A DNA stretch of 64,000 bases from a virus, in IMG/VR virus record IMGVR_UViG_3300023109_000007, positions 73,747-137,746 of that record; one strand, written 5' to 3'. The translations under genes and the position numbers were made by a program. Positions 23,736 through 25,560 of this stretch are shown piece after piece. The notes under the pieces are model-generated. The model was not told the DNA's origin. It made no database searches and saw only the letters and a program-made list of their open reading frames with translations. Each line of letters opens with the position of its first letter. The stretch's first letter is position 1.

Positions 23736-24743
23736 ATGAAACAGATATTGATTACATTATCTGCAATATTTTCTATTATTGCAGCATCTGCTTACGCAGA
23801 AACAACAACAACTCTTGAACAAAGAGTTGCTAACTTAGAAAAGTCAGCACCTTCACTTCCGGCAGGTGTGTTTATTAACGGTGAAATTGAATTATACATT
23901 GATCCTGATAGTACAACAAATAAAACGGAAACTAATGCAGAAATATTTATAGGTCTGCAAAATGAGATTGACCATCCTGTAATAAATTGGGCAGGAGCAA
24001 GCACACGCCTTGATTCAAAATATTCCTTAAACAGAACATTGGACAATACTATTGTTGAAAAACAATTAGGATTTGGAATTGCTGGTACAAGATTATATTT
24101 TGGCGAAACAGATGCTCAACGTTTAGGCTTTGCAAAAACATCTAAAATTGGCGCACCATTAGTTATTACAGAGTCAAGTAGTAGAATTGACCATAATGAA
24201 AAAATTGTACTTACATTTGGTGGATGGAAAAACAACAACGAGTTTGAGTTTGACGAATATAGATTACAGCGTGATACGCCATACGGCGGAGTTGTAGCAT
24301 ACGATCCAAATAATGAAGTAACATATGCAGGAGCAACAGTAAGTTTATTTGGACTAGCTGATGTTTCTTATATGCGTATTGACAAAAAAGATGCAGTACT
24401 ACAAGAAGGCTATTCAATTGGCACTCAAGTACTTCGTAGATACCGAATACCTGTAGGACTTGGAGTTGAAGTATGGGACGATGGCAACACTGGAACATTT
24501 ACTTCTGAAAGTAGAATTGATATGGGAATAATGTACAATGTCAATAAAGAATTCATGCTTACTGCACATAAAGTCAAAAATGACGATATTGGTACAGATG
24601 CAATGTACTACGGAGCATTATATACTGTAGGTAATATCCAAACTGGATTGTATTTGCACCAAGTAGATAGAACAAACACATGGACCGGTCAAAGAACTGA
24701 ATATGCCGATAGTATGAAAGCTACAATTAAATATTCTTTTTAA
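23736..24743 (+). CDS. Porin-like outer-membrane beta-barrel protein
   Basis: Signal peptide (MKQILITLSAIFSIIAASAYA), short coiled coil LEQRVANLEK, amphipathic beta strands, C-terminal ATIKYSF Bam signal. Confidence 0.7.
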   Translation: MKQILITLSAIFSIIAASAYAETTTTLEQRVANLEKSAPSLPAGVFINGEIELYIDPDSTTNKTETNAEIFIGLQNEIDHPVINWAGASTRLDSKYSLNRTLDNTIVEKQLGFGIAGTRLYFGETDAQRLGFAKTSKIGAPLVITESSSRIDHNEKIVLTFGGWKNNNEFEFDEYRLQRDTPYGGVVAYDPNNEVTYAGATVSLFGLADVSYMRIDKKDAVLQEGYSIGTQVLRRYRIPVGLGVEVWDDGNTGTFTSESRIDMGIMYNVNKEFMLTAHKVKNDDIGTDAMYYGALYTVGNIQTGLYLHQVDRTNTWTGQRTEYADSMKATIKYSF

Positions 24744-24752
24744 AAAAAAAGG

Positions 24753-24780
24753 TTGACATCTTATATATAGATGCTATTAT
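24753..24780 (+). promoter_or_regulatory. Sigma70-type promoter with no downstream ORF
   Basis: TTGACA (24753-24758), 16-bp spacer, extended -10 TGcTATTAT (24772-24780). Confidence 0.7.
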
Positions 24781-24786
24781 GTATAT

Positions 24787-25033
24787 ATAAGCTAAACGAC
24801 GGTTTAGATTAGATAGTGCAAGGAACGGTGTTGCGTAGTGACACAACTTGGCTAGTAGCTGTAGTGGCAACATATGAGTGTAGAGATACAAAGATATGTT
24901 TTTGGAAGTAACTATCCGATGCTAGGCTCCTCCGAACATGGCGAGAGCTACTAGGAGGTTGTTGGTATTCTCAGAGTCCAACCTATCACTTTATTATTAA
25001 AAGGTCTACCCACTAATGCGGTAGGCCTTTTTT
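24787..25033 (+). ncRNA. Putative structured small RNA (about 240 nt)
   Basis: Bounded by a promoter and a terminator; nested stems including CTAGTAGCT/AGCTACTAG, AACATAT/ATATGTT, a GAGA tetraloop hairpin and GATAG/CTATC. Confidence 0.6.
24999..25033 (+). terminator. Rho-independent terminator
   Basis: AAAAGGTCTACC-cactaatgc-GGTAGGCCTTTT followed by a T tract. Confidence 0.85.
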
Positions 25034-25051
25034 CTTTTCTCTTAGACCTTT

Positions 25052-25155
25052 GATAAATACTATTGTCAAATAGTGTGCCGCAAGGCGGACTTATGCTGTA
25101 CCCACAGCGTAGCTCATAGAACGGGCATAGGACTACTTTTTATAGGAGAAAAAAA
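25052..25155 (+). promoter_or_regulatory. Late promoter variant (GATAAATA) and structured 5' leader
   Basis: GATAAATA at 25052-25059, then three hairpins (CCGC-aag-GCGG; TATGCTGT-accc-ACAGCGTA; GCTC..GGGC) before the AGGAG SD. Confidence 0.55.
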
Positions 25156-25560
25156 ATGGGAAGACCAATTAATAAAAGATTTTTCGGAGAGCCAACAGCA
25201 GCTGGTTCTGAAATCAAAGTACGTTTTCGTGCTACAGGACAAGCAGAAGCAAACGGCTGGATTGTAAAGCAATTAGGATCTAAGAAGTTCCGTTGCTACG
25301 ATGGTACTAACACAATGGATTGTACAATCGTTGACAAATCACAAGGTACGTTAGCAGTAGGCGAAATGACGATTACAGTTAAAGACGATGGCGGCACAGC
25401 ACGTCAAGTAACTAAAATTGCAGGACGCAAAGTAACACTTGACTCAGGCGCAAGTATTGCTTGGAACTTCAGTAATGCTACAGATGATGCAGCAGTTGAA
25501 ATGGAAGAAGCTGGTACAGCTGATGACTTCACTGGCGCAGACGATTTCGAAGCTGACTAA
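25156..25560 (+). CDS. Hypothetical late (virion?) protein
   Basis: Strong SD and late promoter; beta-rich with an acidic tail; followed by a hairpin at 25569-25589. Confidence 0.75.
   Translation: MGRPINKRFFGEPTAAGSEIKVRFRATGQAEANGWIVKQLGSKKFRCYDGTNTMDCTIVDKSQGTLAVGEMTITVKDDGGTARQVTKIAGRKVTLDSGASIAWNFSNATDDAAVEMEEAGTADDFTGADDFEAD

What the first reader, a model, noticed from the sequence alone, without database searches (positions are those of the whole stretch)
24753..25033. Stand-alone ncRNA gene candidate: host-type promoter, multibranch fold, terminator and no ORF
Seen: TTGACA-16-TATTAT with a TGn extension, about 240 nt without a credible ORF, then a strong terminator. The fold is almost fully nested: CTAAAC/GTTTAG (24792-24807); closing GATAG/CTATC (24812/24983); CAAG/CTTG around GTGTTGC-gta-GTGACAC; a 9-bp CTAGTAGCT/AGCTACTAG (24852/24946) enclosing AACATAT/ATATGTT with a TGTA-GAGA-TACA GNRA hairpin, TTGGA/TCCGA and CTC/GAG; and GTTG/CAAC. 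Inference: an early-expressed phage RNA embedded in the late region. It could be a protein sponge or anti-defence decoy, a 6S-like mimic, or a regulator of the adjacent porin gene.
Basis: partly seen in the sequence, partly recalled or inferred. Interest (0 to 1): 0.75.

Follow-up and report, generated by a model that had tools for sequence, protein, structure and literature searches.

The report
Free-standing manA-family phage RNA gene
The flagged stretch is a real, separately transcribed folded RNA of about 247 bases in an uncultured marine giant phage. It is a diverged copy of the already catalogued manA RNA, which a 2026 preprint reports to build RNA-only cages, and not a new kind of RNA.

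Summary
A near-consensus sigma70 promoter with a TGn extension sits at 24753-24780. It is followed by about 247 nt with no conserved ORF and a strong intrinsic terminator at 25003-33.

The RNA is not new. It matches Rfam manA (RF01745) over the whole model at 42.1 bits. That is below the gathering score of 55.2, so routine annotation misses it. Relatives sharing its core run continuously up to 62 bits.

In 96 distinct viral-contig homologues the manA architecture is kept by compensatory changes: 83% of cells pair, against 35-46% when partners are slid.

Several results argue for a self-contained RNA gene and against a riboswitch of the next gene:
- A promoter scoring at least 10 of 12 lies upstream in 89 of 96 homologues.
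- A terminator follows in 59 of 96, with 43 different hairpins among 55 and no anti-terminator complementarity.
- The first downstream ORFs fall into 18 unrelated gene groups.

Three loop-loop complementarities (L5-L7, L8-L9, L3-L8) co-vary. They carry the same names as the contacts that a July 2026 cryo-EM preprint reports to hold manA pentamers, decamers and a 60-mer cage together. My helix numbering is inferred.

The role in infection is unknown. This scan reached the same reading earlier on other genomes.

The parts
24753..24780 (+). sigma70-type promoter: -35 TTGACA (24753-58), 16-nt spacer with TG at 24772-73, -10 TATTAT (24775-80). The inferred start is near 24787.
   Evidence: 11 of 12, TG extension; a promoter scoring at least 10 of 12 lies within 70 nt upstream in 89 of 96 homologues, and 81 of 96 have TG. 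The start site is inferred and not mapped.
24792..24807 (+). 5' hairpin (P1 in my numbering): CTAAAC-GACG-GTTTAG
   Evidence: Helix 1: all 6 pairs have double changes and 71% of cells pair. The hairpin is longer in other clades.
24812..24987 (+). manA-type core. Closing helix GATAG/CTATC (24812-16/24983-87) around a five-way junction (P3, P4, P8, P9). P4 (24852-57/24920-25) closes a four-way junction (P5, P6, P7).
   Evidence: Rfam manA match 24792-24992, model positions 1-192 of 192, 42.1 bits. Covariation on 96 homologues. RNAalifold on an independent MAFFT alignment.
24819..24850 (+). P3: CAAG/CTTG plus GTGTTGC/GTGACAC. The loop-side GUAG (24835-38) is complementary to CUAC (24948-51) in the P8 loop.
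   Evidence: helices 3 and 4. L3-P8 complementarity: 4.44 against 3.57 +/- 0.09 in permutations, 0 of 1000.
24858..24868 (+). P5 hairpin. The L5 loop UGUAGUG holds UAGU (24862-65), which pairs with ACUA of L7.
   Evidence: 93.2% of 336 cells pair. The centre pair is AU 30, GC 26, GU 12, UA 10.
24870..24899 (+). P6: ACATAT/ATATGT plus TGTA/TACA, capped by the GNRA tetraloop GAGA (24883-86)
   Evidence: helices 7 and 8. The loop is read from the sequence.
24902..24919 (+). P7 hairpin TTGGA/TCCGA. The L7 loop AGUAACUA holds ACUA at 24911-14.
   Evidence: helix 9 (91% paired)..
24927..24957 (+). P8: basal stem CTCCT/AGGAG with a large distal loop region. That region carries GAGAG (24943-47, complementary to L9) and CUAC (24948-51, complementary to L3).
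   Evidence: The distal small stem that I drew (TGGC/GCTA) is weakly supported: helices 12-13 pair in 65-68% of cells.
24961..24982 (+). P9 hairpin GTTGG/CCAAC. The 12-nt L9 loop holds UUCUC at 24968-72.
   Evidence: helix 14 (100% paired, 3 of 5 pairs with double changes). L8-L9: 4.51 against 3.79 +/- 0.10, 0 of 1000 and 0 of 2000.
25003..25033 (+). Intrinsic terminator: hairpin 25003-27 plus a U-run at 25028-33, after a 15-nt A/U-rich linker (24988-25002)
   Evidence: A terminator follows 59 of 96 homologues, and in 55 of them the T-run begins 25-39 nt past the end of the RNA model (model end = 24992 in the window, where the T-run is at 25028). There are 43 distinct hairpins among those 55.
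25052..25158 (+). Separate downstream unit, not part of the RNA gene. It holds the conserved box GATAAATAC (25052-60), the freshwater-2 leader (25074-25158) and the start of the 134-aa ORF (25156-25560).
   Evidence: RF02980 scores 68.4 bits against a gathering score of 49.9; this leader is conserved in front of the 134-aa gene in loci that lack the manA RNA.

Best explanation
The stretch 24753-25033 is a self-contained gene for a manA-family RNA in an uncultured marine giant T4-like phage.

How it most likely works:
1. Host RNA polymerase starts at a near-consensus sigma70 promoter, near 24787. This start is inferred.
2. Transcription ends at an unconditional intrinsic terminator at 25003-33, giving an RNA of about 247 nt. 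The ends are inferred from sequence.
3. The RNA folds into the manA architecture: a 5' hairpin, then a closing helix around a five-way junction, one arm of which closes a four-way junction. Covariation shows this.
4. Exposed loops carry three co-varying complementarities: L5 with L7, L8 with L9, and L3 with L8. Permutation and column tests show this.
5. A cryo-EM preprint reports that contacts with these names join manA monomers into pentamers, and these into decamers or a 60-mer cage. So the most likely molecular behaviour is self-assembly of the RNA into a closed multimer in the infected cell. This step is inferred: covariation cannot tell pairing within a molecule from pairing between molecules.

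What the assembly does for the phage is unknown. It is probably not a riboswitch of the next gene.
For: Identity:
- Full-length Rfam manA match at 42.1 bits, E 1.5e-9 on 551 nt.
- Of 16 loci sharing its core word, 14 match manA at E up to 0.01 with 35-62 bits, and 4 of the 16 reach the gathering score.
- A model built from window-like sequences finds those same loci at 114-135 bits.

Structure:
- 96 distinct homologues, 59 pairs. 83.3% of cells pair, against 64.5% in shuffles (0 of 500 reach the observed value) and 35-46% when partners are slid.
- 56 of 59 pairs have double changes.
- An unfitted MAFFT and RNAalifold run on 15 sequences recovers the same helices, with 20 of 33 pairs compensatory.

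Own transcription unit:
- A promoter scoring at least 10 of 12 in 89 of 96 homologues, at a clade-constant distance, and a terminator in 59 of 96.
- No excess complementarity between the RNA's 3' part and the terminator's 5' arm: 4.84 against 4.90 +/- 0.10, with 780 of 1000 permutations at least as high.
- The first downstream ORFs fall into 18 unrelated clusters among 84. They include gp32, mannose-6-phosphate isomerase, rubrerythrin, redoxin, cold-shock, Hsp20 and CHAP proteins.
- Only 22 of 79 loci of the 134-aa gene carry the RNA.
- The 134-aa gene has its own conserved leader.

Loop contacts:
- L5-L7: 93.2% of cells pair, with AU/GC/UA exchange at the centre pair.
- L8-L9: 4.51 against 3.79 +/- 0.10. 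L3-P8: 4.44 against 3.57 +/- 0.09. Both 0 of 1000.
- Four control loop pairs are not raised.

Cages: preprint 10.64898/2026.07.01.735769 (abstract, found passages and section 8 read).

RNA libraries: contigs of 4 of 4 laid metatranscriptome runs, from 4 studies, cover the RNA. This is a weak hint only.
Against: - The window RNA scores below Rfam's gathering cut-off (42.1 against 55.2).
- No transcript ends are mapped. Two RNA-library contigs (runs X16 and X17) run on upstream into promoter letters, so DNA carry-over or read-through is possible.
- 37 of 96 homologues have no detected terminator. In a gp32-linked clade the gene starts about 70 nt downstream, so there the RNA would be part of an mRNA leader.
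- I inferred the helix numbering of the preprint from helix order and from the GNRA loop on the sixth helix. Its figures and supplements were not visible.
- Its assemblies were made in vitro at 10 mM Mg after heating, and none of its constructs is known to be from this clade.
- Permutation tests ignore relatedness.
- One control, L5-P8, was mildly raised (8 of 1000).
- L8-L9 and L3-L8 could be contacts within one molecule.
Confidence: 0.7

Rival explanations
1. Cis-acting riboswitch or leader, as Rfam labels it. The manA fold senses a metabolite or protein and sets read-through of the terminator into the 134-aa gene.
For: - Rfam types manA as Cis-reg.
- Weinberg et al. 2010 rated it a probable riboswitch found in potential 5' UTRs (found passages read).
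- The RNA lies upstream of, and on the same strand as, the 134-aa gene.
- 37 of 96 homologues lack a detected terminator.
- The junction nucleotides are highly conserved, as in aptamers.
Against: - There is no conserved anti-terminator. Terminator hairpins change freely (43 forms among 55) while the RNA's 3' part is fixed. Complementarity is at permutation level.
- A 15-nt linker separates the fold from the terminator.
- The downstream gene has its own conserved box and freshwater-2 leader, which occur without the RNA in most loci.
- Downstream genes are unrelated in function.
- In L016 and L033 another gene (CHAP domain) sits between the RNA and the 134-aa gene.
Confidence: 0.12
2. Trans-acting protein-binding RNA, such as a sponge, an anti-defence decoy or a 6S-like polymerase mimic. 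The co-varying loop contacts would be tertiary pairs within one molecule that shape a binding surface.
For: - It has its own promoter and terminator.
- It has a compact conserved fold.
- Covariation cannot separate pairing within a molecule from pairing between molecules.
- RNA-library contigs over it have high word depth (weak).
Against: - No 6S or other protein-binding RNA family matches at E up to 10.
- The fold is branched, not a rod.
- No protein gene is consistently linked.
- The cryo-EM preprint shows RNA-only assemblies for the family.
Confidence: 0.13
3. A small-protein message, or a chance fold in a spacer.
For: Two + strand ORFs of 31 and 26 aa lie inside the stretch.
Against: - Those ORFs are intact in only 6 of 96 homologues each.
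- Substitutions are compensatory in helices.
- The fold is better than shuffles, z = -2.98.
Confidence: 0.02

Closest known systems
manA RNA motif (Rfam RF01745; Weinberg et al. 2010, PMC2864571; cryo-EM preprint 10.64898/2026.07.01.735769)
   Same: - The match covers the whole model with the same helix order and junctions.
- It occurs in T4-like phages of marine metagenomes.
- Relatives sit before mannose-6-phosphate isomerase, Hsp20 and similar genes, as the 2010 paper describes.
- It has a GNRA loop on the sixth helix, and L5-L7, L8-L9 and L3-L8 complementarities named like the preprint's contacts.
   Different: - It scores 42.1 bits, below the gathering score of 55.2.
- The closing helix is GAUAG/CUAUC where the consensus has GGGAG/CUCCC.
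- The host is a giant GAP32/PA5oct-like phage rather than a cyanophage.
- It is followed by its own terminator and so is not in a 5' UTR.
- Assembly of this clade is untested.
freshwater-2 RNA (Rfam RF02980)
   Same: It lies 41 nt behind the terminator (25074-25158, 68.4 bits). It often travels with the manA RNA: its core word follows the RNA in 35 of 96 homologues.
   Different: It is a separate element. It is an 84-position leader ending in the Shine-Dalgarno sequence and ATG of the 134-aa gene. BLAST finds it in front of that gene in most loci that lack the manA RNA.
ROOL and GOLLD large RNAs of phages and bacteria (recalled from memory; no call made)
   Same: These are phage-associated, ornate, non-coding RNAs of unknown function, reported to form RNA-only multimeric cages. 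This is recalled, and the preprint's discussion alludes to earlier long-RNA multimers.
   Different: They are several hundred nucleotides long and belong to unrelated families. I made no comparison here.
Terminator-type riboswitches, such as the glutamine riboswitch RF01739 found about 300 nt upstream of manA in three related loci
   Same: A structured RNA followed by a terminator, upstream of a gene on the same strand.
   Different: No anti-terminator complementarity, no consistent downstream gene, and no known ligand.

Membership tests
manA RNA (RF01745) | Covariance-model score at or above Rfam's gathering score (55.2 bits) | tested here: not met
   42.1 bits, E 1.5e-9 on 551 nt. It is absent from the gathering-mode scan of the window. 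This cut-off is operational and is not a structural feature.
manA RNA (RF01745) | Full consensus architecture: 5' hairpin, then a closing helix around a multi-way junction with a nested four-way junction | tested here: met
   Model positions 1-192 of 192 are matched. All 14 helices of my drawing have pairs with double changes in 96 homologues.
manA RNA (RF01745) | Sequence continuity with members above the cut-off | tested here: met
   14 of 16 loci sharing the core word match manA at 35-62 bits, and 4 of the 16 reach 55.2. Model R1, built from window-like sequences, hits those four at 114-135 bits.
manA RNA (RF01745) | Loop-loop pairing, given as 'pseudoknot?' in the 2010 figure legend and as L5-L7 in the preprint | tested here: met
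   The 4 pairs 24862-65 with 24911-14 pair in 93.2% of 336 cells, with centre-pair exchange. That this is the pairing of the 2010 figure is my inference, because figures are not held.
manA RNA (RF01745) | Position in the 5' UTR of a gene (cis-regulatory type) | tested here: inconclusive
   It lies upstream of a gene on the same strand, but a terminator and a second leader intervene in the window. 37 of 96 relatives have no detected terminator.
manA RNA (RF01745) | RNA-only homo-oligomers (pentamer-based decamer or 60-mer) | not testable with these tools
   Known only from the preprint. It needs native gels, size-exclusion or cryo-EM of this RNA.
Transcription-terminating riboswitch | Mutually exclusive pairing between the aptamer's 3' part and the terminator's 5' arm | tested here: not met
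   Longest complementary run 4.84 against 4.90 +/- 0.10 in permutations, with 780 of 1000 at least as high.
6S RNA | Long rod with a central bubble, and a match to a 6S model | tested here: not met
   No 6S family appears among the 6 matches at E up to 10. The fold is branched.

The most novel reading that the evidence does not exclude
In giant and T4-like phages, manA RNAs are early-expressed, free-standing genes. Their product assembles inside the infected cell into an RNA-only shell or ring, through the co-varying L5-L7, L8-L9 and L3-L8 contacts. That would be a phage-made RNA compartment or scaffold that sequesters or displays something during infection, and not a gene switch. The interchangeable L8/L9 'address' words (at least nine complementary versions among relatives) would keep the RNAs of co-infecting phages from mixing.
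Probability: 0.3. Interest if true: 0.8.

Novelty: new member of a known kind. Interest (0 to 1): 0.35.

Why it matters
manA has been filed since 2010 as a probable riboswitch with no known ligand. A 2026 preprint shows cages in vitro but gives no biology.

This locus and its 96 relatives bear on that question in three ways:
- The RNA usually has its own strong host-type promoter.
- It often has its own unconditional terminator.
- The loop words that would join copies together co-vary.

Together these fit a free-standing, self-assembling RNA made early in infection. The finding also shows that Rfam's cut-off misses a large clade in giant marine phages. It does not reveal a new class, and this scan has reached the same conclusion on other genomes.

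Tried and rejected
- blastn ('distant') of 24700-25200 against 50,697 phage records found no match. No cultured phage in that collection has a close copy at that sensitivity.
- The genome search with RF01745 on the window's own contig found nothing, and nothing rang in the 14 control genomes either. Its first-look filter misses this 42-bit match, so that blank means nothing.
- The core word scanned over genome contigs gave 31 stretches in unrelated MAGs. Model R1 confirmed none of them: there was one 16.8-bit partial match and nothing else at E up to 0.01. By my rough estimate, 19 fixed bases over 596 billion bases give this many hits by chance. So I found no cellular copy with that exact word. 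This is not proof of absence.
- My first loop test used predicted terminal loops and G-U pairs, and it did not separate cognate from non-cognate L5-L7 (3.67 against 3.53). I replaced it with Watson-Crick-only runs on fixed segments and a column test.
- timed out, and I reran it faster.
- The box GATAAATAC is not enriched in the window: 2 matches against 0.97 expected, and 23 of 100 shuffles have at least 2. Calling it a T4-like late promoter rests on recall and on its conserved place before freshwater-2 in relatives. ATAAATA within 200 nt downstream in 77 of 96 had no chance control.
- Read laying gave no transcript ends. All four runs are contigs, two contigs carry promoter letters, and bins without cover (for example 25005-25051 in three runs) prove nothing. 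I use word depth only as a weak hint.
- The Atlas search of the 134-aa protein gave only unnamed viral clusters at 0.76. Pfam and PHROGs gave nothing for it.
- The supplements of the preprint and of Weinberg 2010 (alignments, construct sequences, helix numbering) were not opened.
- I ran no structure or complex prediction. The tools on hand are for proteins.

Full report
**What is there**

The window is part of a 137.7-kb IMG/VR viral contig that CheckV rates 36% complete. Its major capsid protein is 67-71% identical to those of giant myoviruses such as Vibrio phage 2.275.O, Cronobacter phage GAP32 and Pseudomonas phage PA5oct. Runs that hold the stretch are seawater or marine metagenomes.

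The region runs as follows:
- a porin-like gene, 23736-24743
- a promoter: TTGACA, 16 nt, TGcTATTAT, at 24753-24780. It scores 11 of 12 and is the best of 24 promoter-like sites in 10 kb.
- about 210 nt of structured sequence
- a 15-nt A/U linker
- a hairpin at 25003-27 with six U
- the next gene, 25156-25560

The stretch folds at -74.1 kcal/mol, against -62.0 +/- 4.1 for shuffles. The z-score is -2.98, and 2 of 200 shuffles fold as well.

**Identity**

At gathering thresholds Rfam reports only freshwater-2 (RF02980, 25074-25158, 68.4 bits) in the window. With E-value thresholds on 24650-25200 the stretch 24792-24992 matches manA (RF01745) over model positions 1-192 of 192. The score is 42.1 bits with E 1.5e-9, below the gathering score of 55.2.

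I tested whether this is homology in three steps.
1. Relatives of the 134-aa downstream protein gave 79 viral loci.
3. Rfam run on 16 of the word-bearing loci gave full-length manA matches in 14, at 35-62 bits. Four reach the cut-off: L106 61.9, L084 57.9, L116 57.5 and L161 55.4.

A covariance model built from 15 window-like sequences (A1 and R1) hits those four loci at 114-135 bits. It found the RNA in 96 of 100 non-redundant sources.

So the window RNA belongs to a continuum that straddles Rfam's threshold. It is a diverged manA. Context agrees: relatives sit before a mannose-6-phosphate isomerase/cytidylyltransferase gene, an Hsp20 gene and others. The 2010 description names the same kinds of genes (found passages read).

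**Structure**

- On the 96-sequence alignment, 83.3% of 5481 cells pair. Column shuffles give 64.5% (0 of 500 reach the observed value), and slid partners give 35-46%.
- 56 of 59 pairs show double changes, and the covariation score is 0.50 against 0.07-0.10 for slid partners.
- That alignment is fitted to the model. An unfitted MAFFT alignment of 15 sequences folded by RNAalifold recovers the closing helix, P3 base, P4, P5, P6, P8 base and P9, with 20 of 33 pairs compensatory.
The 9-bp CTAGTAGCT/AGCTACTAG pairs in 57% of cells. The competing P4 pairs in 94%.

**No coding role**

The 31-aa and 26-aa + strand ORFs are each intact in 6 of 96 homologues. The - strand ORF is intact in 0 of 96.

**Stand-alone gene or leader?**

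- In the 96 homologues, a promoter scoring at least 10 of 12 lies within 70 nt upstream in 89, and 81 have a TG extension. The distance from the -10 box is constant within each clade.
- A hairpin-plus-T-run terminator follows in 59. In 55 of them the T-run begins 25-39 nt past the end of the RNA model.
- Those 55 carry 43 different hairpins, while the RNA's 3' part is nearly invariant.
- Complementarity between that 3' part and the terminator's 5' arm equals the permutation value: 4.84 against 4.90 +/- 0.10. I see no anti-terminator.
- The first downstream ORFs fall into 18 unrelated clusters among 84. The 134-aa protein accounts for 31 of the 84 by BLAST. gp32 single-strand-binding protein accounts for 17. 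The rest include an isomerase, rubrerythrin, redoxin, cold-shock, Hsp20 and CHAP proteins.
- Conversely, only 22 of the 79 loci of the 134-aa gene have the RNA within the fetched flanks. BLAST finds the freshwater-2 leader in front of that gene in most of them.
- Upstream, the capsid gene is the neighbour in 34 of 93 loci and the porin-like gene in 4 of 93.
- The contig holds one copy.

All this describes a mobile RNA cassette with its own signals.

The exception is a clade with a perfect TTGACA-17-TATAAT promoter and no terminator. There gene 32 starts about 70 nt behind the RNA, so the RNA would also be the 5' part of an early mRNA.

**What it may do**

A July 2026 preprint (10.64898/2026.07.01.735769; abstract, found passages and section 8 read) reports cryo-EM structures of manA RNAs. 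They form RNA-only pentamer-based decamers, octamers and a 60-subunit icosahedral-like cage. The contacts reported are L5-L7' and L8-L9' kissing loops in one construct. In another they are L5-L7', L3-L8' and a GNRA L6-receptor contact.

I numbered the window's helices in order, which puts the GNRA loop GAGA on the sixth helix. I then tested the loops, with these results:

| Loop pair | Window sites | Cognate | Permuted | Permutations at least as high |
|---|---|---|---|---|
| L8-L9 | 24943-47 with 24968-72 | 4.51 | 3.79 +/- 0.10 | 0 of 1000; 0 of 2000 |
| L3-P8 | 24835-38 with 24948-51 | 4.44 | 3.57 +/- 0.09 | 0 of 1000 |
| L5-L7 (alignment-free) | 24862-65 with 24911-14 | 3.26 | 2.87 +/- 0.09 | 0 of 1000 |

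The values are mean longest Watson-Crick runs.

- L5-L7 by columns: the four pairs form in 93.2% of 336 cells. The centre pair exchanges among AU 30, GC 26, GU 12 and UA 10.
- L8-L9: a run of at least 4 occurs in 67 of 76 distinct pairs, against 44.8 expected. At least nine different complementary word pairs are visible among relatives.
- L3-P8: several exchanged words are visible.
- Controls: L5-L9, L7-L9, L7-P8 and L3-L9 are at permutation level (268, 902, 580 and 850 of 1000). L5-P8 is mildly raised (8 of 1000).

These tests ignore relatedness and cannot tell pairing within a molecule from pairing between molecules. They do show that the contacts named in the preprint are under selection in this clade.

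**Expression**

Six metatranscriptome runs hold 23-31% of the sampled words of a 701-nt stretch around the RNA. I laid four of them, from four studies. In all four, contigs cover 24770-25004. Their summed word depths there are 12-1648, against 0-5 over the upstream gene in the same runs.

The tool warns that contig depth cannot rank genes. Two contigs continue into promoter letters. I count this as a weak hint of abundance and not as proof of a discrete transcript.

**Verdict**

The stand-alone reading is supported. The RNA is a sub-threshold member of a known family, and its free-standing nature and likely self-assembly fit recent work. Earlier notes of this scan reached the same reading on other genomes, and I re-derived it here independently. 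Interest is moderate to low.

Noticed in passing
window 25052-25158: A freshwater-2 RNA (RF02980, 68.4 bits) forms the 5' leader of the 134-aa gene and ends in its Shine-Dalgarno sequence and ATG. A box GATAAATAC, conserved in relatives, lies about 14 nt before it and resembles a T4-type late promoter (recalled). BLAST finds the leader before this gene in most of the 79 related loci, with or without the manA RNA.
   Followed up: partly
window 23736-24743: The 335-aa gene between the capsid gene and the RNA has no Pfam or PHROG match. The protein Atlas places it by features (0.95) next to bacterial clusters, some of whose members carry Porin_4 (24% and 47% of members), mostly from Pseudomonadota. 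It is present at this position in only 4 of 93 related loci.
   Followed up: partly
L084 2812-2861, L106 1573-1622, L141 3796-3842 (all - strand): A glutamine riboswitch (RF01739, 43-58 bits, above its gathering score of 35) lies 150-290 nt upstream of the manA RNA in three related viral loci. The window itself has none at gathering thresholds.
   Followed up: no
L089 5814-6722 (-) and 16 similar loci: In one clade, with a perfect TTGACA-17-TATAAT promoter and no terminator, the manA RNA sits about 70 nt upstream of gene 32, the single-strand DNA-binding protein (Pfam gp32, 2.7e-44). I recall that in phage T4 this gene is autoregulated through its mRNA leader. Whether manA plays into that is open.
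   Followed up: no
L016 2362-2895 and L033: In two close relatives, a 177-aa CHAP-domain gene with a lipoprotein-like signal is inserted between the manA terminator and the freshwater-2 leader. This shows that the two RNA elements are separable.
   Followed up: partly
window 25156-25560: The 134-aa protein behind the freshwater-2 leader has no Pfam, PHROG or named Atlas relative. It is nonetheless conserved (59-94% identity) in at least 79 viral contigs, and RNA-library contigs cover it. It is probably an abundant late protein of unknown role.
   Followed up: partly
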